From Candidatus Microgenomates bacterium (GTDB lineage: Bacteria; Patescibacteriota; Microgenomatia; UBA8517; JACQJR01), in assembly GCA_016204995.1 (NCBI GenBank), contig JACQJR010000001.1, forward strand, positions 539,034-603,033: DNA of 64,000 nucleotides, in the 5' to 3' direction. Each line of letters begins with the position of its first letter. Within the stretch, counting starts at the first letter, position 1. A model generated the notes under the pieces. The model was not told where the DNA came from. It made no database searches and worked only from the letters and a program-made list of their open reading frames with translations. The translations under genes were made by a program, and so were the position numbers. This document shows, one piece after another, positions 1,332 through 30,045 of this stretch.

Positions 1332-1356
1332 ATGACCAGATAACCAGGATACTCGG

Positions 1357-1428
1357 AAAACTCGGAGAACCAGAATATCAGAGAAATCTGATGCTCTGAT
1401 TATCTGATATTCTGGTTCTCCGAGTTTT
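1357..1428. repeat. perfect inverted repeat, 25-bp arms (aaaactcggagaaccagaatatcag / ctgatattctggttctccgagtttt) with 22-nt loop; member of the 'cagaa/ttctg' repeat family
   Basis: read directly; sits between the LOG gene and transketolase N-half; likely transcription terminator/attenuator hairpin; related copies at 27996-28090 and inside a CDS at 37311-37430. Confidence 0.8.
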
Positions 1429-1452
1429 CTGATTTTTCTGATTCTCTGAAAT

Positions 1453-2295
1453 ATGACTATCAAACAGTTAGAACAAAAAGCTAATGAAATCAGAGAAGAC
1501 ATTATTAATATGTTGGTAGCTGCTGGTAGCGGTCATTCGGCTGGTCCCTTGGGCATGGCTGATGTTTTTACCGCTCTCTATTTTCAAGTTCTAAATCATA
1601 AGCCCAAAAATCCCGATTGGCCAGAGCGCGACCGCTTAATTTTATCCAATGGTCATATTGTGCCGGTGAGATATGCGGCAATGAGCGCCGCCGGTTATTT
1701 TCCCAAAGAAGAACTATTAACTTTGCGCAAACTGGGCAGTCGTCTGCAAGGTCATCCGGAGAGAAGAAGATTGCCTGGCGTAGAAACCACTTCCGGCCCC
1801 TTGGGATCGGGTCTGGCCCAGGCAGCAGGTTTGGCCTATGCCGCCCGCATGGATAACCAAAAATTCAGAGTGTATTGCATTTGTTCTGACGGTGAGCATG
1901 ATGAGGGTAATCATTGGGAAGCAGTCCTTTTCGCTGCGAAAAGTAAACTGGCCAATTTAACCGCCATTATTGACCGTAACAATATTCAAATTGACGGCCA
2001 TACGGAAGATGTTATGCCGCTGGAGCCACTAACGGCTAAATATGAAGCTTTTGGCTGGCATGTTTTGGATATTGACGGCCATAATATGAAGGAAATTATT
2101 GATGCCTGTCATCATGCCAAGAGTATTTTTGAAAAACCCACCGTCATTATTGCCCACACCATTCCCGGTAAAGGCGTGTCTTTTATGGAAAATCTGCCCG
2201 AATGGCACGGCAAACCTCCTAGCCGCGAAGAAGCCCAAAAAGCTTTGCATGAATTACGGACACTAGGCGGGAGAATTAGGAGTGAGCATGAATAG
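1453..2295 (+). CDS. tkt: transketolase, N-terminal (TPP-binding) subunit of a split transketolase
   Basis: 280 aa; GSGHSAGPLGMADV TPP-binding signature; ends before the Pyr domain, which is encoded separately at 6234-7235. Confidence 0.85.
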   Translation: MTIKQLEQKANEIREDIINMLVAAGSGHSAGPLGMADVFTALYFQVLNHKPKNPDWPERDRLILSNGHIVPVRYAAMSAAGYFPKEELLTLRKLGSRLQGHPERRRLPGVETTSGPLGSGLAQAAGLAYAARMDNQKFRVYCICSDGEHDEGNHWEAVLFAAKSKLANLTAIIDRNNIQIDGHTEDVMPLEPLTAKYEAFGWHVLDIDGHNMKEIIDACHHAKSIFEKPTVIIAHTIPGKGVSFMENLPEWHGKPPSREEAQKALHELRTLGGRIRSEHE

Positions 2296-2815
2296 TGAGT
2301 ATATATTAAAATCTAGATTGGTCACTCCTATAATTTTAGCTAAAGATTTTATATTGATTTTAATAGTCATAGTCTTGATTTATTATGCAGCACCTCAAAT
2401 TTTAAATAGAGATAGGTTATGGCTTATCCTGATAGCACCTATTTTATATCTACTTACGATCTCTATGAGAATTAGTTCTAAGATTGTTTTATCCGATTCT
2501 CAGTTAGACTTTAGCAAGGAGGTGGCTACTGTTTTTGTATGGCCAGGATTAGGCTCCACCTACAAAGAAGTTTTAGATATTAAAGATATAGTTCAAATAA
2601 AGAAAAATTTCAAAGTAGTAACTATGAGGGGTTGGTATATGTGGTGGACTTTAGATTTGGTTCTAAAAGACGGCAAGCATAAGTCAATTAATTACTATTG
2701 GTATAAAAAGCAGGAATTAGGCAAACTTTTAAGTTTAATTATTACAAATAATCCACGAATAAAGGTTGATAGTTTTACTCAAAATCTAATTTCCACTTTT
2801 AAATTTACCCAATAA
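2282..2815 (+). CDS. hypothetical membrane protein (C-terminal STFKFTQ)
   Basis: 177 aa, GTG start, hydrophobic N-terminal half; last 23 nt identical to the end of ORF 3882-4190. Confidence 0.35.
   Translation: MSMNSEYILKSRLVTPIILAKDFILILIVIVLIYYAAPQILNRDRLWLILIAPILYLLTISMRISSKIVLSDSQLDFSKEVATVFVWPGLGSTYKEVLDIKDIVQIKKNFKVVTMRGWYMWWTLDLVLKDGKHKSINYYWYKKQELGKLLSLIITNNPRIKVDSFTQNLISTFKFTQ
2792..2814. repeat. 23-bp direct repeat copy 1 (tccacttttaaatttacccaata)
   Basis: identical 23-mer again at 4167-4189; the pair brackets a 1.35-kb segment carrying an RHH-PIN module. Confidence 0.7.
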
Positions 2816-2821
2816 CCAGGG

Positions 2822-2850
2822 CTTGACAATTCTATACAAATTATATACAA
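2822..2850 (+). promoter_or_regulatory. sigma70-like promoter (TTGACA-17-TACAAT) for RHH-PIN operon
   Basis: cttgacaattctatacaaattatatacaat read directly upstream of 2858 ORF. Confidence 0.5.
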
Positions 2851-2857
2851 TAGTTGT

Positions 2858-3106
2858 ATGCAAACACAGACTTTCAATATTGCTTTACCTAAAGAATTAG
2901 TAAAAATGGTAGATAGGACAGCTAAGAAGGAGTATAAGAATCGTAGCGAGCTGATTCGGGAGGCCCTTCGTGTTTATCTTAAAGACCAGGAAGATTGGGA
3001 ACAAATATTTCAAGCAGGAGAGGTAGGAATGAAGAAAATGGGTCTTAAAAACGAGAAGCAAGTAGATAATATAGTTTATGAATTTAGGCACGGCCGTAAA
3101 TTATAG
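2858..3106 (+). CDS. ribbon-helix-helix (CopG/MetJ-type) antitoxin
   Basis: 82 aa; N-terminal beta-strand plus two-helix pattern (FNIALPKELVKMVDRTAKKEYKNRSELIREALRVYL); overlaps downstream PIN gene. Confidence 0.55.
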   Translation: MQTQTFNIALPKELVKMVDRTAKKEYKNRSELIREALRVYLKDQEDWEQIFQAGEVGMKKMGLKNEKQVDNIVYEFRHGRKL

Positions 3107-3503
3107 AGTAGTTCTTGATACCAATATTTTAATTTCCGCCATTGGCTTCGGAGGCAAACCAAGAAAAATACTGCTACTAACTTTAGGTGATAATTTTCAA
3201 GGCGTAACATCCTCTATACTTCTGGCAGAGTTTCATGAAGTTATCATCAAGAAGTTTCCTGAACTGCAAAAAATATTACCAATAGTGGAACGAAAAATTA
3301 GCAAAAAGTTTCTTATAGTAAAACCCAGAAAGACATTGGATATCCTAAAGGATAAAGATGATAACAGAGTTTTGGAAGCTGCTATAGAAGGTAATTGTGC
3401 TTTCATAGTAACAGGCGATAAAGAGTTGTTGAAACTTAAAAATTATCAAGGTATAAAAGTTCTAACAGCAGAAGAATTTTTAAGTGTACGAAGATATTCT
3501 TGA
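3078..3503 (+). CDS. PIN-domain ribonuclease toxin (VapC-like)
   Basis: 141 aa; VVLDTNILISAI N-terminal PIN signature with the first acidic residue, and a later acidic TGDKELL motif; overlaps RHH gene by ~29 nt. Confidence 0.65.
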   Translation: MNLGTAVNYRVVLDTNILISAIGFGGKPRKILLLTLGDNFQGVTSSILLAEFHEVIIKKFPELQKILPIVERKISKKFLIVKPRKTLDILKDKDDNRVLEAAIEGNCAFIVTGDKELLKLKNYQGIKVLTAEEFLSVRRYS

Positions 3504-3530
3504 CAATCCTAAAAATGCTATACTGAATTA

Positions 3531-3785
3531 ATGTACTTCGGCTGGTTCGATTATACTCACCACAACTCCTCTCAGTATCATAGACAGCGTGGATTTGCTC
3601 CAATTTTAATAGTTATCTTATTTATTTTTGGCATTATCTTTTTTATCCCCTGGCCTACTTCTCATACGCATATGGCAGAATGTGTTAATTTGCCTCCTAG
3701 TCAGCGTGCAGTTACAGATTGCGTTGAGAGGGTGTGGAATCCTTCCATTGCTCAACAATTATGGACTTTATTTATTACAAAATAA
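3531..3785 (+). CDS. hypothetical small membrane protein
   Basis: 84 aa ORF with one hydrophobic segment; preceded by extended -10 tgctatact. Confidence 0.25.
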   Translation: MYFGWFDYTHHNSSQYHRQRGFAPILIVILFIFGIIFFIPWPTSHTHMAECVNLPPSQRAVTDCVERVWNPSIAQQLWTLFITK

Positions 3786-3881
3786 AATTCTATATCTACG
3801 AAGGGAATAGACATAACAGACGAAACAGCTAACTGGAAAACATATACAAATCATGGTGTTAGTTTTAAGTATCCTGTTGAT

Positions 3882-4190
3882 TTGGAGGTGTTAAGTGATA
3901 ATGAAAATAAAATCGAATTAAGTAATCCAATATGGAATATAGTTATTCTTTCAGTGCTGTTTACTGAAAATCAATCAACTCTAAGTACCGCTCAAATTCA
4001 AACCAGTTTTATTTTAGATAAAATACCAGCTATTCGATTCAATACTTCGAAAGATAATCGTTTTTATCGTGCTACTATTAAAACTACAGAAAAACCTTTT
4101 ATAGAAATCCAATATTATGTAGATATTACAAATCCTCAACCAGAATTTATTTTTGACAAAATCCTCTCCACTTTTAAATTTACCCAATAG
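3882..4190 (+). CDS. hypothetical protein (C-terminal STFKFTQ)
   Basis: 102 aa; shares only its last 23 nt with ORF 2282-2815. Confidence 0.3.
   Translation: MEVLSDNENKIELSNPIWNIVILSVLFTENQSTLSTAQIQTSFILDKIPAIRFNTSKDNRFYRATIKTTEKPFIEIQYYVDITNPQPEFIFDKILSTFKFTQ
4167..4189. repeat. 23-bp direct repeat copy 2 (tccacttttaaatttacccaata)
   Basis: identical to 2792-2814. Confidence 0.7.
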
Positions 4191-4420
4191 ATCTTGAAAT
4201 GAGTCCTAGGAGTGTGTGGGCGAACTCACATTAAAAGATTATTTATATCAAAATTTCTAGATTCTTTGGCGATTAATTTTTCTTTCCCACTGATATGTCT
4301 TCTCCAGCCTTTGAAAGCTATCGCTCTTTTAAGTTTATGACTTATAGATTTATTTTTATTGCTTAAGACGCTCATCAAAAGTAGTATACTCAAAATATAC
4401 CAAAAGACCTAATGTTAATT

Positions 4421-4479
4421 AGATGTAGTGCTTCTGCAACAACTAACATTAATTGTTGCAGTAAATTGATTTACTGCAA
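4421..4479. promoter_or_regulatory. nested palindromes upstream of Fic gene (tgcaacaa...ttgttgca; ttgcagtaaa-ttga-tttactgcaa)
   Basis: read directly; perfect 10-bp-arm inverted repeat 4456-4479 ~20 nt upstream of Fic start; probable operator. Confidence 0.5.
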
Positions 4480-4500
4480 CAACTGTGGTATATTTATCTA

Positions 4501-5565
4501 ATGACTAAGCCCAACCATCCTAATAAATTACCAGTAGAGATAGACTATGGGCGCATAGCTAAGCTTTTAGCTAGGGCGCAGTATGCCTTAGGCCGCTTAG
4601 ATGGTTTACATAACCAATTAAAAGAGCCGAATTTGATTCTTGCCCCTCTTACTACTAAGGAGGCTACAGTTAGTTCTAAAATAGAAGGAACACAAAGTTC
4701 AGTGAGGGATGTATTTTTGCATGAAGCTGGCGAGAAAACTAGATTCACTGATGTGGTGGAGGTTTCAAATTATAAAGAAGCTATGCAGTATGCAATTGAG
4801 GAATTAGAGGCTAGGCCATTAGTTCTAAATTTAATAAAAGAAATCCACGAGATTCTCTTAAGAGGAGTAAGGGGGAAAGGTAGAAAAGGGGTTTTTAGAG
4901 ATGATCAGGTCTGGCTTGGACAAGAAGGGGACCCAATAGAGAAGGCAACATATGTTCCGCCAGAGCAAAATTTAGTAGATGAATATATGACAAATCTTGA
5001 AAAATATATTCATTTTGAAAATGAAGATGTTTTGATACAAGCAGCTTTAATCCATTATCAATTTGAGGCCATTCACCCATTTAATGATGGTAATGGTAGG
5101 ATTGGAAGATTACTTATTCCGCTATTTTTGTATTATAAAAATAAGATTACATTACCAATTCTTTATCTAAGCGGATATTTTGAATCGAATAAAGATGCAT
5201 ATCTTGATGCCTTACATAAAGTAGATATTGATAATGACTACAATAATTGGATTCAATATTTTCTAAATGCCGTGATAAAGCAATCAGGCGAAACACAGAA
5301 ACTTATTGAAAAAATACTCAACTTAAATGAAGAAACGGCTAAAAAGGTGGAAGATATTAAGTCTCCTTATATTTCAAGAATAGTGGAATTTTTGTTCAAA
5401 AAACCCATATTTAATGTACCTATGTTGACGGAAGAAATATCAGCCCATAGGTCAACTATGATCCGTCTAGTAGAAGAATTAATAAGATTAAATATTTTAA
5501 TAGAGATAAAGTTAGAAAAACATAAACGCACATTTGTTTTTACAGACTTAGTGAAGATTCTTTAA
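4501..5565 (+). CDS. Fic/Doc-family protein (Fido domain, C-terminal winged helix)
   Basis: HPFNDGNGRIGRLL = canonical Fic motif HPFx[DE]GNGR; upstream SSKIEG matches the (S/T)xxxE(G/N) inhibitory motif. Confidence 0.85.
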   Translation: MTKPNHPNKLPVEIDYGRIAKLLARAQYALGRLDGLHNQLKEPNLILAPLTTKEATVSSKIEGTQSSVRDVFLHEAGEKTRFTDVVEVSNYKEAMQYAIEELEARPLVLNLIKEIHEILLRGVRGKGRKGVFRDDQVWLGQEGDPIEKATYVPPEQNLVDEYMTNLEKYIHFENEDVLIQAALIHYQFEAIHPFNDGNGRIGRLLIPLFLYYKNKITLPILYLSGYFESNKDAYLDALHKVDIDNDYNNWIQYFLNAVIKQSGETQKLIEKILNLNEETAKKVEDIKSPYISRIVEFLFKKPIFNVPMLTEEISAHRSTMIRLVEELIRLNILIEIKLEKHKRTFVFTDLVKIL

Positions 5566-5582
5566 AGAAGGAGAGCAAATAT

Positions 5583-5654
5583 ATGTCAAAAATTAAAATC
5601 TATTTTGATAAAAAGGGGCGGACTCTTAGTGTCTGGTTTGATGATCCCAATTGA
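5583..5654 (+). pseudogene. 23-codon remnant resembling the N-terminus of DUF2283 antitoxin-like proteins
   Basis: MSKIKIYFDKKGRTLSVWFDDP then stop; compare intact DUF2283-like ORF at 32435-32635 (MKVKYYKKDDLLVIELS). Confidence 0.25.
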
Positions 5655-5668
5655 GCTTAAAGTTACTT

Positions 5669-5709
5669 AGTCACAAATTTGTTGGTAGAAAGTGACTATT
5701 TTTTTTTTG
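5669..5709 (+). terminator. rho-independent terminator (agtcac...gtgact + T10)
   Basis: 6-bp stem, 17-nt loop, followed by run of ten T. Confidence 0.45.
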
Positions 5710-5839
5710 AAAAAAATTAATTTCAAAAACTGCTAATTTTTTAGCCTCGTTTTGTGCGAATTAAACTATTGACAAATGTGAAATAATTCTTCAATCTTAA
5801 TGATGTACCGTATGTTTTACTGACGGACAAAAACCAGCG

Positions 5840-6196
5840 ATGCCTGCAGGACGATATCACATCATTATCCACGCTAATGGCGTAAATAACGATAGCCTCA
5901 CAGATAAAGAAGGTCTAACTAATTTTCTCAATATTCTTCCCGGAAAAATTAACATGAGTATTTTAAATCCTCCGGTGGTAGTGGAAGGCATTCCGGCAAA
6001 TCCCGGACTGTCCGGTTTTGTCATTATTGATTTTTCCCATATCTCAATTCATACCTTTACCGAGTACAACCAGGTGATGGTGGATATTTTTTCTTGCAAA
6101 CCATATGATCAAGAAGACGCCACCCAAGCGGTGTTAGATTACTTCCAAGTGCCCCGTGAGCAGGCGATGGTGGAAAAGGTTTATTGGGGGGAGTAG
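5840..6196 (+). CDS. speH: S-adenosylmethionine decarboxylase proenzyme, small bacterial/archaeal type
   Basis: 118 aa; GLSGFVIIDFSHISIHTFTEY...VDIFSCKPYD aligns with Bacillus/Thermotoga SpeH ([20 protein letters not shown]...DVYTCGD) including the Ser that becomes pyruvoyl. Confidence 0.65.
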   Translation: MPAGRYHIIIHANGVNNDSLTDKEGLTNFLNILPGKINMSILNPPVVVEGIPANPGLSGFVIIDFSHISIHTFTEYNQVMVDIFSCKPYDQEDATQAVLDYFQVPREQAMVEKVYWGE

Positions 6197-6233
6197 AATA
6201 GACTCTAGATATTAGAGTTTAGATTTTAGAACT
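6197..6233. repeat. 'tagaa/ttcta' simple-repeat spacer (tagactctagatattagagtttagattttagaact)
   Basis: read directly; same family as 9941-10010, 22662-22705, 29128-29200, 47403-47520. Confidence 0.6.
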
Positions 6234-7235
6234 ATGCTAAATGCCTCTGCCCACCTTTCTTCGCACATTTTTTCTGCTGATATTGAAAAGATTGCCACGC
6301 GTCAAGGATATGGTGAGGGTTTGGTGGAGGCGGGAGAGAAAGATGAGAATATAGTGGTGTTATGCGCTGATTTGACCGAAAGCACCCGTTCTAATTTATT
6401 TGCTGAAAAATTTCCCGACAGGTTTATTGAAGTGGGAGTAGCAGAACAATTAATGGCGACCCTAGCAGCAGGGATGGCTAATTATGGCAAAATTCCCTTT
6501 ATCTCTTCCTATTCGGCTTTTTCGCCCGGCCGTAACTGGGAACAAATCAGAACCACCATTGCTTTAAACGATGTGCCGGTAAAAATTGCCGGCGCCCATT
6601 CGGGAATTTCGGTGGGGCCGGATGGAGCCACTCACCAGCAACTTGAGGATATTGCCATGATGTCCGCCATGCCCAATATGATAGTGGTGGTGCCAGCCGA
6701 TAGTGTGGAGGCTAAAAAAGCCACTCTGGCCATTGCCGAAAATGGCAAACCTTCCTATCTTCGTTTTGCCCGCCACAATTCTCCCCTTTTTACGACCAGC
6801 CAAACTCCTTTTAAGGTGGGCCGCGCCGAGATTTTCTGGCAAAGTAAAAAGCCGGAAGTAGCGATTATTGCCTGCGGCCCTCTAGTCTATGAAGCATTGC
6901 TGGCGGTCAAAGAATTGGAGGAGAATGGGATGGGGAGCATAGTGGTTAATAACCATACCGTTAAACCACTTGATGAACAAACTCTGGCCCGGGTTGCTAA
7001 AATTTGCGGCTGTGTAGTAACAGTGGAAGAACATCAAATCCAAGGAGGTTTGGGGGCGGCAGTAGCTGAAGTTTTAGCGCGTAGTTTTCCAGTGCCGATA
7101 GAATATGTGGGAATGCCTGATAGTTTTGGTGAGTCAGGCGAGCCAGAAGAACTTTTGGAAAAATATGGTATGACCGCCTGTTATATAATGGAAAAGGCCA
7201 AACTGGTAATTGGCCGAAAAAATCATGGAGATTAA
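6234..7235 (+). CDS. tkt: transketolase, C-terminal (Pyr + C-terminal domain) subunit
   Basis: 333 aa; EVGVAEQLMATLAAGMA... pyrimidine-binding domain signature; partner of 1453-2295 but separated by a 3.9-kb insert. Confidence 0.85.
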   Translation: MLNASAHLSSHIFSADIEKIATRQGYGEGLVEAGEKDENIVVLCADLTESTRSNLFAEKFPDRFIEVGVAEQLMATLAAGMANYGKIPFISSYSAFSPGRNWEQIRTTIALNDVPVKIAGAHSGISVGPDGATHQQLEDIAMMSAMPNMIVVVPADSVEAKKATLAIAENGKPSYLRFARHNSPLFTTSQTPFKVGRAEIFWQSKKPEVAIIACGPLVYEALLAVKELEENGMGSIVVNNHTVKPLDEQTLARVAKICGCVVTVEEHQIQGGLGAAVAEVLARSFPVPIEYVGMPDSFGESGEPEELLEKYGMTACYIMEKAKLVIGRKNHGD

Positions 7236-7974
7236 CAAAATTTTAAAAAATAATCATGGCATGCTACTGGCTTATGACCATGGTTTTGAACATGGACCGA
7301 CAGATTTTGATGAGCGGAGCGTTGACCCGGCCTGGATTATGGATATTGCCGATTCTGGTTTTTTTACCGGGGTAGTTTGTCAAAAAGGCATTGCTGAAAA
7401 GTATTATAATCGTGACAAATATAGCGTGCCTTTAATTGTCAAACTAAATGGCAAAACCGCTTTTCATAAAGATGAGGAGCCGGTTTCTTTGCAAAATTGT
7501 ACAGTGGAGGAAGCTGTTGCTTTGGGTGCAACAGGAGTAGGCTATACCATTTATGTCGGTTCAGAACATGAGCAAACGATGATTGCCGAGTTCGCGAAAA
7601 TTGAAAAAGAGGCCCACCAAAAAGGCCTCATTGTGATTGGCTGGATGTATCCGCGGGGATCACACGTCGCGAGTGATACAGATCGCGACACCTTAGCTTA
7701 TGCCGCCCGTTTAGGATTAGAACTAGGAGCAGATGCCATTAAAATTAAATACACCGGAGACGCGGAAAGTTTTTCCTGGGTGGTTAAAAGTGCCGGGGAA
7801 ACGAAAGTTTTTGTGGTAGGCGGACAAAAAACTGAAACAGCAGCAGAGCTTTATCAAACGGCGAGTGATATTTTGCGAGCCGGCGCCGTGGGTTTGGCCA
7901 TCGGCCGCAATGTCTGGCAGGCGGAAAAACCAATGGAGGTAGCTAAAAAATTAGGAGAAATACTGTATGGATAA
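7210..7974 (+). CDS. class I fructose-bisphosphate aldolase, archaeal DhnA/FbaB type
   Basis: LLAYDHGFEHGP and VKLNGKT motifs of the DhnA family; start may be the Met at ~7225. Confidence 0.65.
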   Translation: MAEKIMEINKILKNNHGMLLAYDHGFEHGPTDFDERSVDPAWIMDIADSGFFTGVVCQKGIAEKYYNRDKYSVPLIVKLNGKTAFHKDEEPVSLQNCTVEEAVALGATGVGYTIYVGSEHEQTMIAEFAKIEKEAHQKGLIVIGWMYPRGSHVASDTDRDTLAYAARLGLELGADAIKIKYTGDAESFSWVVKSAGETKVFVVGGQKTETAAELYQTASDILRAGAVGLAIGRNVWQAEKPMEVAKKLGEILYG

Positions 7975-8953
7975 TTTTGATTTAATCAGTATCGGCGATG
8001 CCTCTTTAGATGTGTTTATTGCTCCGACTGAACATGAAGAACTTTGCACACTGGATCGGGAAAAATGTTTGGTTTGTTTTAACTACGCTGATAAAATTCC
8101 CGTTCGCGATTTAACTTTTTCTATGGGAGGAAACGCGGCCAATAATGCGGTGGGCTCGGCTCGTTTAGGAGTAAAAGTAGCTTTGCTTGCCACCTTAGGC
8201 GATGATAAAACGGCAGGTCAAATTATGGACAATGCTCGCACGGAGGGGGTGGATACTACTTTTGTGACTAAACAGGCAGGAGTAATGTCTAATTATTCAA
8301 CGGCTATTATGTACAATGGGGAGCGGACCATTTTTGTTTATCACGCCCCTTACAATTATCAATTTCCCACCTTGCTTCCTGCTGCCCCGTGGGCATATCT
8401 CACTTCCATGGGGGAAGGTTTTGCGCCATTTTATCAGGGATTAATTGACTGGGCGCGAGCTCATGACACTAAAATCGTTTTTAACCCTGGCAGTTTTCAG
8501 ATGAAAGCCGGCATTGATGCTCTGCGTAATTTATTCCCCTTGATTGAAATTTTATTTGTTAATAAAGAAGAGGCAGCTCGTTTGATGGGAGATCACAATT
8601 CTGTTTCGGAAAAACAACTACTAGCCGGCATGGTGCAATTAGGAGCTAAAAAAGCCGTCATTACCGATGGGGCTAACGGCGCCTTTAGCTTTGACGGTCA
8701 AAAATATTGTCGTTCTCAAGTTTTGCCGGTTGATGCTTATGAGCGAACCGGAGCGGGAGACGCCTTTGCTTCAGGTACTTTAGCCGCCTTAATACAGGGT
8801 AAAAGTATGGATGAGGCTCTACTTTGGGGGACAGTTAATTCAGCATCGGTGATCGGTCATGTCGGTCCGCAGAGAGGGCTGTTAAAAAAAGAACAACTAT
8901 CAGAATGGCTAGAAAGAGCTCAATCAAGCGGAGTAAAAGTAGAAGAATTTTAA
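7967..8953 (+). CDS. PfkB-family carbohydrate kinase (ribokinase-like)
   Basis: GGNAANNAVGSARLG and C-terminal GAGDAFASG motifs. Confidence 0.75.
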   Translation: MDNFDLISIGDASLDVFIAPTEHEELCTLDREKCLVCFNYADKIPVRDLTFSMGGNAANNAVGSARLGVKVALLATLGDDKTAGQIMDNARTEGVDTTFVTKQAGVMSNYSTAIMYNGERTIFVYHAPYNYQFPTLLPAAPWAYLTSMGEGFAPFYQGLIDWARAHDTKIVFNPGSFQMKAGIDALRNLFPLIEILFVNKEEAARLMGDHNSVSEKQLLAGMVQLGAKKAVITDGANGAFSFDGQKYCRSQVLPVDAYERTGAGDAFASGTLAALIQGKSMDEALLWGTVNSASVIGHVGPQRGLLKKEQLSEWLERAQSSGVKVEEF

Positions 8954-9933
8954 TGAAAATATTTATCACTCGCCGAATACCTGGTTCAGCCTTAGATAAA
9001 TTGAAAGAAGTTGGTGATGTTACCATTTCTCCTTACGATCGGCCGATTCAGCTGGAAGAGTTGATTGCCGGCGTAAGAGATGCTGATGCGCTGTTATGTT
9101 TACTGAACGATCATATTGACGCTAAAGTGATGGAGATGGCTCCAAATTTAAAAATTATTGCCAATTATGCCGTTGGTTTTGATAATGTGGATGTGGCCGC
9201 GGCTACCGAACGGGGCATTGTGGTAACGAATACCAGTTCGGATGAAGTTAGCGAAGCCGTAGCCGAATTTAGCTGGGCTTTAATTTTATCTTTATCCCGC
9301 CGTATTATTGAAGGCGATGAATTTGGCCGCAAAGGCGCTTATCAAGGTTGGGAGCCGGATTTATTTTTAGGTCGGGATGTTTATGGCAAAACTTTAGGTA
9401 TTGTCGGTTTGGGCAGGATTGGAGTAATGGTGGCTCGCAGAGCCCGCGGTTTTAAGATGAAAGTACTTTATAACAAACGAGAAAGAGATGAAAAAGCAGA
9501 ACAGGAATTAGGGGTAGAATTTCGCGATTTAGATAGCCTTTTAGCAGAAGCAGATTTTGTTACTTTACATGTGCCGTTAAGTAAGGAAACTCGCCATTTA
9601 ATTTCCGAAGCGCAACTGGCTAAAATGAGACCAACTTCATATTTAATTAATACCAGTCGGGGCGGAGTAGTAGATGAACATGCTTTAGTTAGCGCTTTAA
9701 AGTCGGGCAAAATTGCCGGAAGCGCCTTGGATGTTCACGAAAATGAGCCGGAAATGAATCCTGAACTTTTAATGATGGAAAATGTGATTTTGACTCCGCA
9801 TATGGCTTCAGCCACCGAAGAGGTCAGAGAAAAAATGACCAGCCAGGCAGTAGAAGCAATAGTTAAAACTTTAGCCGGCGAGAAACCAGAAAATTTAATT
9901 AATCCGGAGGTGTGGGAGAAGAGGAAGAAGTAA
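8953..9933 (+). CDS. D-isomer-specific 2-hydroxyacid dehydrogenase (glycerate dehydrogenase-like)
   Basis: GLGRIGVMVARRARGFKMKV NAD-binding motif, catalytic HxxxE region; ORF-track start 8905, but MKIFITRR at 8953 is the likely start. Confidence 0.8.
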   Translation: MKIFITRRIPGSALDKLKEVGDVTISPYDRPIQLEELIAGVRDADALLCLLNDHIDAKVMEMAPNLKIIANYAVGFDNVDVAAATERGIVVTNTSSDEVSEAVAEFSWALILSLSRRIIEGDEFGRKGAYQGWEPDLFLGRDVYGKTLGIVGLGRIGVMVARRARGFKMKVLYNKRERDEKAEQELGVEFRDLDSLLAEADFVTLHVPLSKETRHLISEAQLAKMRPTSYLINTSRGGVVDEHALVSALKSGKIAGSALDVHENEPEMNPELLMMENVILTPHMASATEEVREKMTSQAVEAIVKTLAGEKPENLINPEVWEKRKK

Positions 9934-16248: not shown

Positions 16249-16356
16249 ATGACTGAATTACAAGCTTTTTATTTAATTTCAGCAATAGTCCTGCTAGCCC
16301 TTTCTCTTTTGGCCGCGCCAACATTATGGAAGCGCTCTAAAAAAAGAAAAAAGTAA
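16249..16356 (+). CDS. 35-aa single-TM peptide with basic tail (MTELQAFYLISAIVLLALSLLAAPTLWKRSKKRKK)
   Basis: below ORF-track cutoff; read from sequence immediately after CPBP gene. Confidence 0.25.
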   Translation: MTELQAFYLISAIVLLALSLLAAPTLWKRSKKRKK

Positions 16357-16406
16357 CTTCAATTAAATTTGCTTACAGCTTCAAAAAGTGCTATAAATTT
16401 CCATAT

Positions 16407-16598
16407 ATGAATTGGCAAGAAAGGATAAGGGAAGTAGAAATAAGACGACAAGGAGAGGAAAGAGGGCGACTACAGCAACAGTTGGTAGAACGCCAGCGGA
16501 TAGATACCGAAAGAAATGCTATTTTACAACGCCTGGAAGTAGAGAAGTTATTAAAAGGTATAAGAGATGAAGTGTGGGGAGGAGCAGGGGGATGTTAA
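16407..16598 (+). CDS. hypothetical coiled-coil protein, probably N-terminal part of a frameshifted gene
   Basis: 63 aa charged helical; overlaps next ORF by 32 nt across a G5 run. Confidence 0.3.
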   Translation: MNWQERIREVEIRRQGEERGRLQQQLVERQRIDTERNAILQRLEVEKLLKGIRDEVWGGAGGC

Positions 16599-17007
16599 AC
16601 CTTTACCAGGTAGTTTGGGTTTTGAGTTAACTTTTCAATATAGGGATATAACGATGGCAGGTGGTAGTCCCCGCGATATTCCTTATGCTATAGTTGTTAC
16701 CAAACAGCTTTCTTTAGAAGTAAGGTTGGACTATTGTGAAATTGGTGGTAAATATATGCACGGCAGCCAAAAATTGTATGAATATATATCATCTGCTGGG
16801 TATTATTTAGATGTAGATGCAGATGATTTGTGTAGTTATGGGGGTGCGAAAAATCATAAGTTGATTAAAACTGTAGATCCCAAAGCAAAAGAATTATTGA
16901 TAGATACTCTGGCAGATTATTGCTATCAGCAACGTTTAGACGGAAAACGCCTTCACCAACTAGCTGTTGGGGGAGAGAAAAATATTAGAGCTAATGGTTT
17001 AAAATAG
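16567..17007 (+). CDS. hypothetical protein, probably C-terminal part of the same frameshifted gene
   Basis: 146 aa; +1 frame relative to 16407 ORF. Confidence 0.3.
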   Translation: MKCGEEQGDVKPLPGSLGFELTFQYRDITMAGGSPRDIPYAIVVTKQLSLEVRLDYCEIGGKYMHGSQKLYEYISSAGYYLDVDADDLCSYGGAKNHKLIKTVDPKAKELLIDTLADYCYQQRLDGKRLHQLAVGGEKNIRANGLK

Positions 17008-17011
17008 CAAT

Positions 17012-18211
17012 GTGGTTAGTCTCCTTAAAATAAGTTTACTGCTAACAGTTTTTGCGTTACCCCTAATTTCTCCTTTTAATGCTTTTGGTTATGAGAAAGC
17101 TAAAGTAATAGTATTTCTTTTTCTTAATAGTTTTAATTTATTGTTATGGGTGCTTGCTTTATGGAAATATCCCAAGAAGATAAAAATTAAGTGGAATAAC
17201 TTAAAACTGGCAGGGTTAGTTTTTATTATAATTTTATTCATTGCTTCTCTAAGTGGCGTTGATCTATTAACTAGCTTAGTCGGCCGCGAGCCATACTTTC
17301 AAGGATGGGTAGTCTACAGCTATCTATTTACTTTTTATTTAATGGTTTCTTCAATAAAAATTCCTCTAAAAAATTGGGCGACAGTTTTAATAACTTCGGC
17401 CACCATAGTTTCTCTGATTGCTATTAAAGATTGGTTGCTGGTTTTTTTATTAAATATAAATTTAGCTACTTATGCCGGCCGAGTCGGTTCTACTTTTGGC
17501 CAGCCAAATTTTTATGCAGGTTTTCTATTATTGGCTTTGCCATTTCTAACTTTCTTAAAAATAAATAAATTAGCAAAAATTTTAGCAGCACTTATTTTAG
17601 GAACGGGGATAATATTAAGCGGATCGCGAATTGCCATTTTATTTTTACCATTTCTACTTTATTTTTGGCTGGTAATTAGTTTAAAAATTAATTTCAAAAA
17701 AGCGATAAAGGTTTTAGGAATAGTGATCACACTATTAATAATAGCCACGGGAATTTATCTATTGCCTCGTTACTTAGAAGATAGTTTTGGCAAAACAAAA
17801 AATTGGTATGACAGTTATAGCCCAGAAAGAAGAGAATATATTTGGCTGGAAAGTATAAATTTAATTAAAGAGAAATTTGTTTTAGGATATGGTTTAGAAA
17901 ATTTAGCAACCGTGTTTGGTAAAAATTTAAAACCGGAAATTCCCAACGGATTTCCCACCCATATTTTAAATGACATTAAAAATTTAACAGTTAATAGGAC
18001 TCATAATTATTTATTGGACTTGGCAATTTTCAGCGGTATTGGTGGTGTAATTAGTTATTTGGTAATACTCTGGTTAATATTCAAAAGAGCAAGCCAAAAA
18101 TTATTATTAATTCCTTTAATAATATATTTAATTTGGGTCCAATTTCAAAATCAATCAATAGTTCATCTGCTTTATTTTTGGCTGTTAGTAGGATTAATTG
18201 ACTCCGATTGA
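17012..18211 (+). CDS. O-antigen ligase / Wzy_C-family membrane protein
   Basis: 399 aa, ~10 TM; ILSGSRIAILFLPF resembles the GSRxA motif region of the O-antigen ligase family. Confidence 0.45.
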   Translation: MVSLLKISLLLTVFALPLISPFNAFGYEKAKVIVFLFLNSFNLLLWVLALWKYPKKIKIKWNNLKLAGLVFIIILFIASLSGVDLLTSLVGREPYFQGWVVYSYLFTFYLMVSSIKIPLKNWATVLITSATIVSLIAIKDWLLVFLLNINLATYAGRVGSTFGQPNFYAGFLLLALPFLTFLKINKLAKILAALILGTGIILSGSRIAILFLPFLLYFWLVISLKINFKKAIKVLGIVITLLIIATGIYLLPRYLEDSFGKTKNWYDSYSPERREYIWLESINLIKEKFVLGYGLENLATVFGKNLKPEIPNGFPTHILNDIKNLTVNRTHNYLLDLAIFSGIGGVISYLVILWLIFKRASQKLLLIPLIIYLIWVQFQNQSIVHLLYFWLLVGLIDSD

Positions 18212-18219
18212 ATCGGAGT
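18201..18219. repeat. palindrome actccgattgaatcggagt (CCGATTNAATCGG family)
   Basis: read directly; overlaps stop codon of 17012-18211; sister sites at 37936-37952, 39791-39809, 61216-61243. Confidence 0.8.
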
Positions 18220-18243
18220 TGATTCTGAAACCCAAATTGGGTC

Positions 18244-18271
18244 TTGACATGCTGGGGGGGGGAGTTAAATA
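18244..18271 (+). promoter_or_regulatory. sigma70-like promoter TTGACA-16-TAAATA
   Basis: cttgacatgctgggggggggagttaaata upstream of 18281 ORF. Confidence 0.4.
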
Positions 18272-28136: not shown

Positions 28137-28212
28137 GGGTGCGTAGCTCAGCGGTTAGAGCGCCACTCTTATAAAGTGGATGTCCTTGGTTCAAATCCAA
28201 GCGCACCCACCA
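28137..28212 (+). tRNA. tRNA with anticodon UAU (reads AUA; tRNA-Ile2-like), CCA encoded
   Basis: manual fold: acceptor gggtgcg/cgcaccc, D-arm gctc-agcggtta-gagc, anticodon stem ccact/agtgg with loop cttataa, T-arm cttgg-ttcaaat-ccaag, discriminator A, cca. Confidence 0.65.
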
Positions 28213-29127: not shown

Positions 29128-29200
29128 TTATTCTAATTAACCTAATTGACCTAAAATTTTAGAAATTAGAGCAATTAGAAATTAGAAATTTCTCTCTTAG
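29128..29200. repeat. 'tagaa' simple-repeat spacer (cctaattattctaattaacctaattgacctaaaattttagaaattagagcaattagaaattagaaatttc)
   Basis: read directly between dehydrogenase and recombinase genes. Confidence 0.6.
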
Positions 29201-30045
29201 AGTTCTTCCAGCTGATTAGTTTTACCTTTGGCCGGTTCTTTAATCAGAGAAAGATAACGTTCAGTGGTAGACAATCTTTTGTGACCGACAATTTTAGAGA
29301 GAGTGACTAAATCTACTCCACGGGTCAGTTGATGGACAATAAAAGTATTTCTGATATCGTTGACGGTAGCGTCTTCAACACCAGCTTCCACAAAGCAGCG
29401 TTCAATGGTAGAGCGGATGTTGCGGATTAGTAAGGGCCGGCCGGTTTTGGTGATAAAGAGATGTTTGGAATTTTGAGAGCCGCGAGTTTTTAAATAATTA
29501 TCAATGGTGGTTTTAAGATTGGAATGTAAGGGCAAAGTTCGATCTCCCACTTTAATTCCCCTTGGGGTGATGTCATCCAAAGTTAAGGCGGCCAATTCGC
29601 TGATTCTCATACCGGTTTGCAGCAAAATTTCCACAATGGCGGCAGTTCGGGGATCGCTTCTGGCTGCATCGCGTAAGGCTCGGTATTCTAAAACGGATAA
29701 AACGCGCGGTGCAGGCATTTGGTATTTAGGATGAGCTACCGAAAAAGCCGGGTCGCTGCCAATAAGTGATTTTTGTCTTAACCAGCGGAAAAAGCCCTTG
29801 ATGGCGTTAAGCTTGCGGGCCACGGATTTAGGGGTGTATTTTTTTTCAGCCAACTCGGTTAAAAATGACTCCAAATCAATGGCTAAAACGCTGTTGGCTT
29901 CGGTTTTACCCAGGCGGGCTAAAAATTCCGTCAGCTGCTCCAAATCCTTTTTGTAGGCTATAATAGTAGAGTCAGATTTCTTTGTCTCGCGCAGATAGGC
30001 AATAAAATCAAGCACCAAATCAGCTAGTAGAGTACTGTTTGCCAT
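29197..30045 (-). CDS. tyrosine site-specific recombinase, XerC/XerD family
   Basis: 282 aa; RISELAALTLDDI and C-terminal HxxR...LGHKRLSTTERYLS with catalytic Tyr; size fits chromosomal Xer. Confidence 0.8.
   Translation of the reverse strand: MANSTLLADLVLDFIAYLRETKKSDSTIIAYKKDLEQLTEFLARLGKTEANSVLAIDLESFLTELAEKKYTPKSVARKLNAIKGFFRWLRQKSLIGSDPAFSVAHPKYQMPAPRVLSVLEYRALRDAARSDPRTAAIVEILLQTGMRISELAALTLDDITPRGIKVGDRTLPLHSNLKTTIDNYLKTRGSQNSKHLFITKTGRPLLIRNIRSTIERCFVEAGVEDATVNDIRNTFIVHQLTRGVDLVTLSKIVGHKRLSTTERYLSLIKEPAKGKTNQLEEL

What the first reader, a model, noticed from the sequence alone, without database searches (positions are those of the whole stretch)
2296..6233. Split transketolase halves are separated by a 3.9-kb accessory insert
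The transketolase N- and C-terminal subunit genes are normally adjacent or overlapping. Here they are 3.9 kb apart, separated by two hypothetical membrane ORFs, an RHH-PIN toxin-antitoxin pair, a Fic protein with palindromic operators, a degenerate DUF2283 remnant and a speH-like SAM decarboxylase.
This looks like an accessory island, or serial insertions, that landed inside the tkt operon.
Basis: partly seen in the sequence, partly recalled or inferred. Interest (0 to 1): 0.55.

Follow-up and report, generated by a model that had tools for sequence, protein, structure and literature searches.

The report
Accessory genes between split transketolase halves
In this groundwater Microgenomates (CPR) bacterium, the two genes of the split transketolase are held 3.9 kb apart by two layers of inserted accessory genes, a common and tolerated situation in this phylum, not a rarity.

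Summary
tktN ends at 2295 and tktC starts at 6234, so 3,938 bp separate them, and every ORF between them is on the + strand. The arrangement is 100% identical in four independent read sets, so it is not an assembly artefact.

The insert has two layers:
- **Old layer (5740-6196).** The speH-like (AdoMet_dc-fold) gene and its ~100-nt leader sit at the same place in three related lineages. The protein has diverged as much as tkt itself (76-82% identity). This is a long-standing resident, not recent cargo.
- **Young layer (2296-~5739, 3.44 kb).** It is found only in this lineage and is the lowest-GC stretch of the window (32.3% against 41.4%). It carries an orphan membrane ORF, an RHH/PIN toxin-antitoxin pair, a secreted-protein gene broken by an in-frame TAA, a SoFic-type Fic gene with operator palindromes, and a 23-codon ORF. 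It has no integrase, no flanking repeats, and no evidence that it was pre-assembled.

The premise that the halves are "normally adjacent" is only half true here: 34 of 75 Patescibacteria carry 150-3,200 bp of unrelated, co-oriented genes at this junction.

Verdict: an ordinary accessory/defence islet in a recurrently used permissive site. Interest is low to moderate.

The parts
1453..2295 (+). tktN, the transketolase N-terminal (TPP-binding) subunit, 280 aa, intact. Its stop codon TAG is at 2293-2295.
   Evidence: PF00456, E 4.4e-61. 76-83% identical to the tktN of relatives.
2296..5739 (+). Young, lineage-specific accessory block of about 3.44 kb. It starts at the first base after the tktN stop. 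It ends where homology to the relatives' tktN-AdoMet_dc spacer resumes (TTTAGCCTC, 5740-5748).
   Evidence: Junction alignments with L085, L092 and L094. GC 32.3%, the lowest of 606 windows of equal size, and the top tetranucleotide outlier. Absent from every relative examined.
2288..2815 (+). orf177 (175 aa counted from ATG 2288), an orphan membrane protein. Its ATG lies inside the last codons of tktN (cATGAAtag). Its last 11 residues carry the ILSTFKFTQ tail of an unrelated family.
   Evidence: The only match among 5.8 billion proteins is itself (MBI4059158.1, HY404_02875). Hydrophobic stretch at residues 9-64. hhalign against the ANWKTY/ILSTFKF family aligns only residues 165-175.
2792..2814 (+). 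Copy 1 of an exact 23-nt direct repeat, TCCACTTTTAAATTTACCCAATA, at the 3' end of orf177.
   Evidence: 2 matches, 0 expected. Similarity extends about 12 nt upstream across a 1-2 nt indel, so it is DNA-level similarity and not codon-level.
2823..2851 (+). Promoter-like site, TTGACA-17-TACAAT (11 of 12 matches), 7 nt upstream of the RHH gene.
   Evidence: This is the best-scoring site in the region, but the total number of sites there is no more than chance.
2858..3106 (+). Ribbon-helix-helix (CopG-type) antitoxin, 82 aa.
   Evidence: PF01402, 35.7 bits against a cut-off of 20.5. Weak ParD/RelB-type hits in NCBIfam.
3078..3503 (+). PIN-domain toxin, 141 aa. It overlaps the antitoxin gene by 29 nt.
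   Evidence: PF13470 PIN_3, E 2.4e-18. TIGR00305 'putative TA toxin, PIN family', 61.9 bits against a cut-off of 29.15.
3531..4190 (+). One secreted or membrane-anchored protein gene, interrupted by an in-frame TAA at 3783-3785. It was annotated as orf84 plus orf102. It has an N-terminal TM segment, an ANWKTYTN..FKYP motif and an ILSTFKFTQ C-terminus. It is probably a pseudogene.
   Evidence: The two ORFs share a frame with a single stop between them. The read-through product aligns from end to end with the 203-aa protein P0285, E 3e-23. 262 family representatives were found, many spanning residues 9-133 of the read-through, which begins upstream of the annotated start. The stop is present in all four independent assemblies that cover it.
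4167..4189 (+). Copy 2 of the exact 23-nt direct repeat, at the 3' end of the interrupted gene.
4434..4482 (.). Three alternating half-sites, CTGCAACAA / TTGTTGCAG / CTGCAACAA, which include a 14-nt perfect inverted repeat. They overlap a promoter-like site at 4466-4494 and lie 19-67 nt upstream of Fic. This is a probable operator.
   Evidence: Fold z-score -3.07. The closest Fic relatives (51-55% aa; L107, L108, L109) carry arrays of inverted half-sites of a different sequence (TGTAACATTT) at the same place: three alternating copies in L107 and L108, one inverted repeat in L109.
4501..5565 (+). SoFic-type Fic protein, 354 aa. The catalytic motif HPFNDGNGRIGR is at residues 192-203 and the inhibitory motif SSKIEG at 58-63. 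It has a C-terminal winged-helix domain.
   Evidence: Pfam Fic_N, Fic and SoFic-like_C. PADLOC SoFic, E 5.6e-111, full length. Aligns from end to end with solved SoFic structures 9vjc, 9tc4 and 3eqx, E about 1e-32. Motif positions. It is below the NCBIfam equivalog cut-off, 181.9 against 550.
5583..5654 (+). 23-codon ORF, MSKIKIYFDKKGRTLSVWFDDPN, 18 nt after the Fic stop, with an AAGGAG Shine-Dalgarno sequence. Its identity is unverified.
   Evidence: Translation. No Pfam hit and no alignment to the intact DUF2283 of this window. No conserved small ORF follows the Fic genes of relatives.
5740..5839 (+). Conserved leader of the AdoMet_dc-like gene. It has TTGACA (5769-5774), a 17-nt spacer, CAATCT (5792-5797), a short hairpin and AACCAGCG before the ATG. 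It is the probable promoter and 5' UTR that drive AdoMet_dc-like and tktC.
   Evidence: 78-82% identical to L085 and L094 over about 79 nt, against 45-48% at third codon positions of the adjacent gene. The same TTGACA-17-CAnnCT layout lies upstream of the stand-alone homologue in L104 and L106. Promoter function is inferred.
5840..6196 (+). AdoMet_dc-fold (SpeH/SpeD class 1b-like) pyruvoyl-enzyme homologue, 118 aa. It is the old resident of the junction.
   Evidence: PF02675, 71 bits. S66, H71 and C86 align with T. maritima S63, H68 and C83 (roles of these residues from PMC10407285). Below the NCBIfam cut-off, 55.8 against 75.65. Found at the same position in L085, L092/L093 and L094/L095.
6234..7235 (+). 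tktC, the transketolase C-terminal (pyrimidine-binding plus C-terminal domain) subunit, 333 aa, intact.
   Evidence: PF02779, E 9e-43, and PF02780, E 2e-27. 71-78% identical to relatives.

Best explanation
The boundary between the two split-transketolase genes is a permissive site that was filled in at least two steps.

**Step 1 (old).** A small AdoMet_dc-fold gene arrived with its own promoter and leader. It settled directly upstream of tktC and has since been inherited along with tkt in several lineages.

**Step 2 (young, this lineage only).** About 3.44 kb of low-GC flexible-genome DNA was added between the tktN stop codon and that leader. This block is a mosaic of self-contained modules:
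- an RHH/PIN (VapBC-like) toxin-antitoxin pair, which can stabilise the DNA by addiction;
- a SoFic-type AMP-transferase, preceded by an operator that it probably binds through its C-terminal winged helix;
- a decayed secreted-protein gene;
- an orphan membrane ORF whose start codon lies within the last codons of tktN.

**Why it is tolerated.** Every inserted gene points the same way as the operon. The two transketolase subunits are separate polypeptides in any case. tktC is probably transcribed from the conserved AdoMet_dc leader, so it would not depend on read-through from tktN.

**How it got there.** No mobility gene is present. Acquisition was probably by recombination, either homologous exchange through the flanking core genes or illegitimate joining, and not by a self-mobile element.

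**Shown and inferred.** Shown: the gene content, the boundaries, the two layers, absence from relatives, the compositional deviation and reproducibility across assemblies. Inferred: promoter use, operator binding, addiction and the acquisition route.
For: **Two layers.**
- AdoMet_dc lies at the same junction in L085, L092/L093 and L094/L095.
- The protein is 76-82% identical to the window's, comparable to tktC at 73-75%.
- The leader is 78-82% identical, against 45-48% at third codon positions.
- The left and right junctions of the young block map to the tktN stop and to TTTAGCCTC at 5740.

**Foreign and flexible nature of the young block.**
- It has the lowest GC of 606 equal-size windows and the highest tetranucleotide distance.
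- orf177 is an orphan.
- The secreted-protein gene carries an in-frame stop.

**Independence of the modules.**
- In 91 loci holding Fic relatives (at most 55% identical), none of the other insert genes is nearby, apart from one PIN at 28% identity.
- The operator architecture travels with Fic.
- An internal 23-nt exact repeat marks a rearrangement.

**Not an artefact.** Four independent assemblies are identical.

**A permissive site.**
- 34 of 75 Patescibacteria have 150 bp or more at this junction. The figure is 2 of 34 for the rpe-LOG and LOG-tktN junctions (Fisher p = 2e-5) and 7 of 33 for rpe-tktN (p = 0.02).
- The cargo comes from many unrelated families: five groups recur in two or more loci, six further families were identified by Pfam, and most of the rest are unmatched singletons.
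- The longest gap ORF is co-oriented in 28 of 33 loci, and no minus-strand gene is supported.

**Other junctions.** Other junctions of the same glycolysis/pentose-phosphate cluster also carry TA pairs in relatives (L082, L087, L092).
Against: - No transcription data exist. The promoter scan finds no more sites than chance overall.
- The hairpin and T-run after Fic is not significantly stable. Neither co-transcription nor independent transcription of tktC is therefore shown.
- The tkt phylogeny is poorly resolved, and the window lineage is the longest branch. I cannot say whether AdoMet_dc was gained once and then lost, or was transferred between lineages.
- A single loss of the young block in a sister clade cannot be excluded by parsimony alone.
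- The young block could still have arrived in one event.
- The hotspot statistics treat genomes as independent. Some cargo (DUF5671 in 5 loci, the Cys-rich membrane protein in 6) is clearly inherited within clades.
Confidence: 0.72

Rival explanations
1. One pre-assembled accessory island spanning all of 2296-6233, speH-like gene included, was inserted in a single event.
For: All the ORFs are co-oriented and contiguous. GC is uniformly low across 2296-5738.
Against: - The speH-like gene and its leader are shared with L085, L092 and L094, which lack the rest. Its GC of 39.6% is close to that of the host.
- There is no integrase and no outer repeats.
- None of the modules co-occurs with another in the loci of Fic relatives.
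- A weaker form of this rival, in which only 2296-5739 arrived at once, is not excluded.
Confidence: 0.15
2. The arrangement is ancestral, and the relatives have lost the block by deletion.
For: The window lineage branches outside the sampled relatives under midpoint rooting. One loss in their common ancestor would therefore be as parsimonious as one gain.
Against: - More distant Microgenomates and Parcubacteria also lack the block, and many have overlapping tktN and tktC.
- The block is the strongest compositional outlier of the window.
- It contains an orphan gene.
Confidence: 0.07
3. The inserted genes are functionally tied to transketolase, for example as regulators or partners of the enzyme, and are not passengers.
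For: - The junction is occupied unusually often.
- AdoMet_dc is stably linked to tktC and shares or overlaps its start codon in L085 and L094.
- orf177 overlaps the tktN stop.
Against: - The cargo families across 34 genomes are unrelated to one another: NUDIX, CBS, DUF3800, PCC, TA pairs and membrane proteins.
- SoFic and PIN/RHH are generic defence or TA modules.
- In other Microgenomates the AdoMet_dc homologue is a stand-alone gene next to dnaG and rpoD.
Confidence: 0.04
4. The arrangement is an assembly chimera that joins tkt halves from different places or strains.
For: - It comes from a metagenome-assembled genome.
- Two close relatives' contigs (L081, L084) break just upstream of tktC.
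Against: - Four Logan contigs, each assembled independently from a different run, reproduce the region with no mismatch. L088 and L089 run from inside tktN through the insert into tktC.
- The junction sequences are homologous to the relatives' junctions on both sides.
Confidence: 0.01

Closest known systems
Split-gene transketolase (separate N- and C-terminal subunits forming an alpha2beta2 enzyme, e.g. Carboxydothermus hydrogenoformans; PMC7661550)
   Same: There are two separate ORFs with the canonical domain split: PF00456 in one, and PF02779 plus PF02780 in the other. Both are intact.
   Different: The two genes are not adjacent. 3,938 bp and about seven other ORFs lie between them. Across Patescibacteria the junction is occupied in 45% of the genomes sampled.
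Core-gene-flanked integration hotspots and defence islets of the flexible genome, as described for Enterobacteria and Pseudomonas (from general knowledge). CPR are reported to be dense in defence systems in aquifers, with SoFic among the commonest families in groundwater bacteria (PMC12259885).
   Same: Variable, low-GC cargo, enriched in TA and defence-type genes, sits between two conserved core genes, and the content differs between genomes.
   Different: The site lies inside an operon, between the two subunit genes of one enzyme. The cargo is small (0.15-3.9 kb) and strictly co-oriented. There is no integrase, tRNA or att repeats.
VapBC-type type II toxin-antitoxin modules
   Same: The RHH antitoxin gene comes first and overlaps a PIN-domain toxin gene. 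It has a strong promoter-like site of its own.
   Different: The PIN belongs to the PIN_3/TIGR00305 group and not to classical VapC. Neither toxicity nor neutralisation has been tested.
SoFic single-gene anti-phage system (PADLOC SoFic; structures 3eqx and 9tc4; E. coli SoFic with its downstream 47-aa antitoxin AS1, PMC12249575)
   Same: The architecture matches over the full length. The catalytic HPFxxGNGRxxR motif and the inhibitory SxxxEG motif are both intact. A short ORF with a strong Shine-Dalgarno sequence follows the gene.
   Different: Only about 110-116 bits against the solved SoFic proteins, and below the NCBIfam equivalog cut-off. The downstream ORF is 23 codons long and is not conserved among Fic relatives. 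A three-half-site operator lies upstream.
Class 1b AdoMetDC (SpeH/SpeD) and its neofunctionalised arginine and ornithine decarboxylase derivatives (PMC10407285)
   Same: The fold family is the same (PF02675), and the self-processing and catalytic Ser, His and Cys are conserved.
   Different: The sequence reads FS where T. maritima has ES at the cleavage site, and HTFTE where it has HTWPE. It is below the NCBIfam cut-off. No polyamine gene was seen beside it. The substrate is unknown.

Membership tests
Split transketolase (TktN/TktC) | A separate ORF of about 280 aa carrying the TPP-binding N-terminal domain. | tested here: met
   PF00456, E 4.4e-61, residues 9-263.
Split transketolase (TktN/TktC) | A separate ORF of about 330 aa carrying the pyrimidine-binding and C-terminal domains. 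| tested here: met
   PF02779, E 8.9e-43, and PF02780, E 2e-27. 71-78% identical to relatives.
Split transketolase (TktN/TktC) | The two genes are adjacent or overlapping (the usual operon layout). | tested here: not met
   3,938 bp lie between them. In 75 Patescibacteria the median gap is 69 bp, but 45% have 150 bp or more.
Split transketolase (TktN/TktC) | The subunits assemble into an active alpha2beta2 enzyme. | not testable with these tools
   This needs biochemistry (see PMC7661550 for the reference case).
Self-mobile genomic island / integrative element | Encodes an integrase, recombinase or transposase. | tested here: not met
   No such domain appears in any ORF of 2296-6233. The nearest tyrosine recombinase is at 29197-30045.
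Self-mobile genomic island / integrative element | Flanking direct repeats (att sites) or a tRNA target. | tested here: not met
   There are no repeats at the outer junctions 2295/2296 and 5739/5740. There is no tRNA within 20 kb. The only repeat is an internal 23-nt one.
Self-mobile genomic island / integrative element | Compositional deviation and absence from close relatives. | tested here: met
   for composition. for absence.
Type II TA, VapBC-like | A PIN-domain toxin. | tested here: met
   PF13470, E 2.4e-18. TIGR00305, 61.9 bits against a cut-off of 29.15.
Type II TA, VapBC-like | An upstream, overlapping antitoxin gene with a DNA-binding domain. | tested here: met
   RHH_1, 35.7 bits against a cut-off of 20.5. 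The overlap is 29 nt.
Type II TA, VapBC-like | The toxin arrests growth and the antitoxin neutralises it. | not testable with these tools
   Acidic residues are present (D14, E51, D95, D114), but activity has not been tested.
SoFic (Fic-domain defence protein) | Fic_N, Fic core and C-terminal winged-helix architecture over the full length. | tested here: met
   PADLOC SoFic, E 5.6e-111, residues 3-354 against profile positions 7-358 of 361. PDB 9vjc, 9tc4 and 3eqx, E about 1e-32, from end to end.
SoFic (Fic-domain defence protein) | The catalytic motif HxFx(D/E)GNGRxxR and the N-terminal inhibitory motif (S/T)xxxE(G/N). | tested here: met
   HPFNDGNGRIGR at 192-203 and SSKIEG at 58-63.
SoFic (Fic-domain defence protein) | Reaches NCBI's equivalog cut-off for protein adenylyltransferase SoFic. 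| tested here: not met
   181.9 bits against a cut-off of 550.
SoFic (Fic-domain defence protein) | Protects against phage. | not testable with these tools
   This needs plaque assays.
AdoMetDC class 1b (SpeH/SpeD) | Pfam AdoMet_dc domain above the gathering score. | tested here: met
   71 bits against a cut-off of 25.
AdoMetDC class 1b (SpeH/SpeD) | The self-processing Ser and the catalytic His and Cys (T. maritima S63, H68, C83). | tested here: met
   S66, H71 and C86 align with them. The roles of these residues are taken from PMC10407285.
AdoMetDC class 1b (SpeH/SpeD) | Bona fide AdoMetDC signature: the NCBIfam equivalog cut-off, and the residues that flank the processing Ser in T. maritima (ES; HTWPE). 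| tested here: not met
   55.8 bits against a cut-off of 75.65. The sequence reads FS and HTFTE. That the Pro of HTWPE is the diagnostic Pro of PMC10407285 is my assumption.
DUF2283 | A match to the family profile or to a family member. | tested here: not met
   No Pfam hit at E<=5. No BLASTP alignment to the DUF2283 at 32435-32635, which itself scores E 6.6e-10. At 23 residues the ORF is too short to be decisive.

The most novel reading that the evidence does not exclude
The tktN|tktC boundary may be a phylum-wide landing pad for accessory, TA and defence genes in Patescibacteria, constrained in orientation. It is occupied in about 45% of species-level genomes by cargo from many unrelated families, always co-oriented. 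This may be because tktC has or acquires its own promoter, and because cargo is exchanged by recombination through the two conserved flanking genes. A 147-nt diverged duplicate of the tktC 5' end beside a DUF3800 insert in L003 would be a footprint of such exchange. The window would then be the largest known, multi-layered instance.
Probability: 0.4. Interest if true: 0.5.

Novelty: new member of a known kind. Interest (0 to 1): 0.3.

Why it matters
For this locus the value is mostly corrective:
- The two transketolase genes are intact.
- The separation is real and stable.
- It comes from ordinary flexible-genome cargo (a toxin-antitoxin pair, a SoFic defence gene, decayed secreted-protein genes), layered onto an older resident gene.

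The wider pattern is more useful. In CPR bacteria the conserved glycolysis/pentose-phosphate cluster keeps its gene order but is peppered with small co-oriented inserts. The boundary between the two transketolase subunit genes is occupied far more often than its upstream neighbours. If that survives a test corrected for phylogeny, it gives two things:
- a simple core-gene anchor for mining accessory and defence genes in genomes that mostly lack recognisable mobile elements;
- a natural test of how reduced genomes tolerate insertions inside operons.

Tried and rejected
- **Exact look-up of the window's tktN.** It found nothing. The source genome was reached through the AdoMet_dc protein instead.
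- **Rfam on the whole window.** It returned only two tRNAs and nothing in the region.
- **tkt gene fragments inside the insert**, as seen in L003. None was found by tblastn or blastn.
- **Phage origin.**
  - Fic relatives in IMG/VR are at most 41% identical, and orf177 has no relative there.
  - In JGI metagenomes the best Fic relatives are 49-55% identical and never lie next to the other insert genes.
- **The 23-nt repeat as an att site.**
  - The ILSTFKF C-terminus is a common protein motif in Patescibacteria, seen 6 times in 1.27 Mb of unrelated loci, each with different codons.
  - The exact DNA identity in the window therefore points to a local duplication or conversion. It flanks only part of the block.
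  - I treat it as a rearrangement scar, not as island ends.
- **orf177 as a paralogue of the interrupted gene.** hhalign supports only the last 11 residues, at 9% probability.
- **A terminator after Fic.** The hairpin and T-run is no more stable than shuffled sequence.
- **Promoter scan.** The number of sites equals chance. Only the RHH site (11 of 12 matches) and the conserved AdoMet_dc leader are worth citing.
- **DUF2283 identity of the small ORF.** It could not be verified. An AS1-like antitoxin role is not supported by conservation.
- **Polarising gain and loss with tkt trees.** Support was too low.

Full report
**What is there.**
The window comes from a Candidatus Microgenomates (CPR/Patescibacteria) genome. 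The proteins of the region are NCBI MBI4059158.1 to MBI4059164.1, with locus tags HY404_, on a 609,565-bp contig. The best tktC homologues are 71-78% identical and are named Microgenomates or Woesebacteria.

The region lies in a conserved, co-oriented carbon-metabolism cluster. The order is rpe (23-658), a LOG/TIGR00730 protein (663-1331), tktN (1453-2295), tktC (6234-7235), a DeoC/DhnA-type aldolase (7210-7974), a PfkB kinase (7967-8953) and a 2-hydroxyacid dehydrogenase (8905-9933). tktN and tktC are both full length with the expected domains. The 3,938 bp between them hold only + strand ORFs:
- orf177 (2288-2815);
- an RHH antitoxin (2858-3106) overlapping a PIN_3 toxin (3078-3503);
- orf84 (3531-3785) and orf102 (3882-4190);
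- a Fic protein (4501-5565);
- a 23-codon ORF (5583-5654);
- an AdoMet_dc-fold ORF (5840-6196).

There is one exception. The "DUF2283 remnant" cannot be verified: it has no Pfam hit and no alignment to the intact DUF2283 at 32435-32635.

**It is not an artefact.**
Four contigs assembled independently from four sequencing runs (L088-L091) match the window with no mismatch and one 1-nt gap. Two of them run from inside tktN through the whole insert into tktC and beyond.

**The insert has two layers.**
One of the closest relatives, L085, has tktN, then 92 nt, then a 118-aa AdoMet_dc gene, then tktC. L092/L093 and L094/L095 have the same order, with spacers of 132-166 nt.

The AdoMet_dc proteins are 76-82% identical to the window's. 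That matches the divergence of tktN (79-83%) and tktC (73-75%).

The roughly 80 nt upstream of the gene are 78-82% identical between lineages, whereas third codon positions of the adjacent gene are only 45-48% identical. This is a selected promoter or leader: TTGACA at 5769-5774, a 17-nt spacer, CAATCT, then a short hairpin.

A more distant homologue (64% identical) is a stand-alone gene next to dnaG and rpoD, and it has the same TTGACA-17-CAnnCT layout. The AdoMet_dc-fold gene therefore moved into the junction with its own promoter long ago.

Aligning L085 with both ends of the window's insert places the younger block exactly. It starts at the first base after the tktN stop (2296). It ends where TTTAGCCTC (5740) resumes the conserved spacer.

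**The young block, 2296-~5739.**
At 32.3% GC it is the lowest of 606 windows of equal size (mean 41.4%, sd 2.7%). It is also the strongest tetranucleotide outlier. The leader plus AdoMet_dc segment (39.6%) is close to the flanks at 43-44%.

None of its genes has a tblastn match (E<=1e-5) within 10 kb of tkt in the 80 other Patescibacteria genomes. The block is also absent from the close relatives L082, L083, L086 and L087, where tktN and tktC overlap or lie about 110 nt apart.

It contains no integrase or transposase. There are no repeats at its outer ends, no tRNA nearby and no tkt fragments inside it.

**The modules.**

1. *orf177.* It is an orphan: the only match among 5.8 billion proteins is itself. 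It has a long hydrophobic N-terminal stretch. Its ATG lies within the last codons of tktN.

2. *RHH/PIN.* This is a standard antitoxin-first, overlapping type II pair. The toxin passes the TIGR00305 cut-off. An 11-of-12 promoter-like site lies 7 nt upstream.

3. *orf84 and orf102.*
   - They are in the same frame, separated only by a TAA at 3783-3785.
   - The read-through product aligns from end to end with a 203-aa protein, P0285 (E 3e-23).
   - 262 family representatives match. Many match from the ANWKTYTN..FKYP motif, which lies upstream of the annotated orf102 start, to the ILSTFKF C-terminus.
   - This is one interrupted gene, probably a pseudogene.

4. *The 23-nt repeat.*
   - The last 23 nt of orf177 and of the interrupted gene are identical (2792-2814 and 4167-4189; 0 matches expected by chance).
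   - Similarity continues upstream across an indel, so it is DNA-level similarity.
   - The body of orf177 is unrelated to that family.
   - Other ILSTFKF tails in Patescibacteria use different codons.
   - I read the repeat as a local duplication or conversion scar. It shows that at least one rearrangement took place inside the block.

5. *Fic.*
   - It is a full-length SoFic-type protein (PADLOC E 5.6e-111; PDB SoFic structures at E about 1e-32).
   - The catalytic and inhibitory motifs are intact.
   - It is below NCBI's equivalog cut-off.
   - Three alternating half-sites (4434-4482) overlap a promoter-like site just upstream.
   - The closest Fic relatives (51-55% identical) carry arrays of inverted half-sites of a different sequence at the same place: three alternating copies in L107 and L108, one inverted repeat in L109. 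This supports an operator that co-evolves with the protein.
   - SoFic is among the commonest defence families in groundwater bacteria, and CPR are dense in defence systems there (PMC12259885).

6. *The 23-codon ORF.* It follows Fic with a strong Shine-Dalgarno sequence. E. coli SoFic has a 47-aa antitoxin encoded downstream (PMC12249575). No comparable ORF is conserved after the Fic genes of relatives, so I leave it unassigned.

**One island or several events?**
In 91 loci that hold Fic relatives, none of the other insert genes lies nearby, except one distant PIN. Each module has its own regulatory signals. The block also holds a pseudogene, an orphan gene and an internal repeat.

This favours a mosaic built from independent pieces. 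It cannot exclude that the 3.44 kb arrived together. What is certain is that the full 3.9 kb reflects at least two events widely separated in time.

**The junction in general.**
In 75 Patescibacteria loci with both genes, the tktN-tktC gap has a median of 69 bp. It is 150 bp or more in 34 loci (45%) and 500 bp or more in 24%. The maximum elsewhere is 3,234 bp, so the window is the largest case seen.

The neighbouring junctions are far less often occupied. The figures are 0 of 15 for rpe-LOG, 2 of 19 for LOG-tktN (Fisher p = 2e-5 for the two combined) and 7 of 33 for rpe-tktN in genomes without LOG (p = 0.02). Junctions downstream of tktC are also variable. Relatives carry TA pairs and 23S_rRNA_IVP genes at other junctions of the same cluster.

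The cargo at the tkt junction is heterogeneous:
- DUF5671 membrane proteins (5 loci);
- a Cys-rich membrane protein (6 loci);
- DUF3800 (2 loci) and the PCC domain (2 loci);
- NUDIX, CBS, 23S_rRNA_IVP, a DUF6036/AbiEii-like nucleotidyltransferase and PDDEXK_3;
- a Gp49/HTH TA pair;
- several small membrane proteins.

The gap is lower in GC than the flanking tkt genes in every one of the 34 loci. The longest gap ORF is co-oriented with tkt in 28 of 33 loci. In the other five there is no supported minus-strand gene.

These counts are not phylogenetically independent, so the hotspot remains a lead and not a result.

**How it most likely works.**
- The transketolase subunits are separate polypeptides (reference case: PMC7661550), so separating the genes does not break the protein.
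- Co-orientation avoids transcriptional collisions.
- The conserved leader in front of AdoMet_dc-tktC probably supplies tktC with its own transcription start. An insertion upstream of it would then not be polar. This is inferred, not shown.
- The TA pair can stabilise the block by addiction. SoFic is a candidate abortive-infection defence gene kept in check by its inhibitory helix and, probably, by autorepression at the operator. All of this is inferred from the families.

**The AdoMet_dc-fold protein.**
It keeps the processing Ser and the catalytic His and Cys (PMC10407285). It departs from bona fide AdoMetDC at the neighbouring positions and scores below the equivalog cut-off. Its substrate is open. 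Neofunctionalised arginine and ornithine decarboxylases of this fold are reported in CPR (PMC10407285).

**Verdict.**
The feature is an ordinary flexible-genome islet, a new member of a known kind, in a publicly annotated genome. Two corrections apply:
- The speH-like gene is an old, conserved resident with its own promoter.
- Separation of the tkt halves is common in this phylum.

The possibly new element is the recurrent, orientation-constrained use of this junction. It needs a survey corrected for phylogeny.

Noticed in passing
window 1337-1448: A 112-nt near-perfect hairpin (49-nt arms, -64.7 kcal/mol, z = -11) fills the LOG-tktN spacer. There is one copy in the window, and relatives lack it (their LOG-tktN gap is mostly 60 nt or less). 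It could be a MITE-like insertion or a strong RNA structure directly upstream of tktN.
   Followed up: partly
window 29197-33530: A second low-GC accessory islet. It holds a tyrosine recombinase (29197-30045, minus strand), an RHH-like ORF plus PIN (30474-31155), a membrane ORF, a probable DUF4258-type partner ORF with no Pfam hit (32197-32463) plus an intact DUF2283 (32435-32635), a Phd/ParE-type pair (33011-33530) and two tRNA-Met genes (32062-32132 and 32643-32717).
   Followed up: partly
window 16250-18250: A third low-GC stretch (31-35% GC). It includes a Wzy_C/O-antigen-ligase-like membrane protein (17012-18211) and two ORFs with no family match.
   Followed up: partly
window 28137-28212: ARAGORN calls a tRNA-Ile with anticodon TAT (UAU). 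Most bacteria instead read AUA with a lysidine-modified CAU tRNA.
   Followed up: no
L003 8820-8966 and 10001-10147: In Woesebacteria RIFCSPLOWO2_01_FULL_39_10 a 147-nt copy of the tktC 5' end lies to the left of a DUF3800 plus membrane-ORF insert. It is about 87% identical to the genome's own tktC, and the last 26 nt are identical. It may be a footprint of recombination with a diverged donor at this junction.
   Followed up: partly
window 5740-5839; L085 4705-4796; L094 1185-1267: A non-coding leader upstream of the AdoMet_dc-like gene is 78-82% identical across lineages, whereas synonymous sites are only 45-48% identical. It has a TTGACA box and a small conserved hairpin (CAGTATGTTTT(GG)TACTG). 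Its function is unknown beyond a probable promoter or 5' UTR.
   Followed up: partly
window 3786-4190; P0241-P0390: A large Patescibacteria protein family (262 representatives at 50% identity). It is defined almost only by an N-terminal ANWKTYTN..FKYP motif and a C-terminal ILSTFKF(T/I)x end, with a variable middle and no Pfam model. The C-terminal motif also ends proteins of quite different length in unrelated loci.
   Followed up: partly
L081 1-75; L084 1-42: Two contigs from close relatives end 75 and 42 nt upstream of tktC, in AT-rich non-coding sequence that is not the tktN 3' end. This may reflect strain-level variation at the same junction.
   Followed up: no
L083 3304-3418: The 115-nt tktN-tktC spacer of this relative is GC-rich and looks structured. 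It is unlike the AT-rich spacers elsewhere.
   Followed up: no
L082 2684-3266 and 9572-10308; L087 1975-2358 and 2977-3554; L092 3937-4567: Other junctions of the same glycolysis/pentose-phosphate cluster in relatives hold TA pairs (DUF433/DUF5615, PemK, PIN) and 23S_rRNA_IVP genes. Some are on the opposite strand.
   Followed up: no
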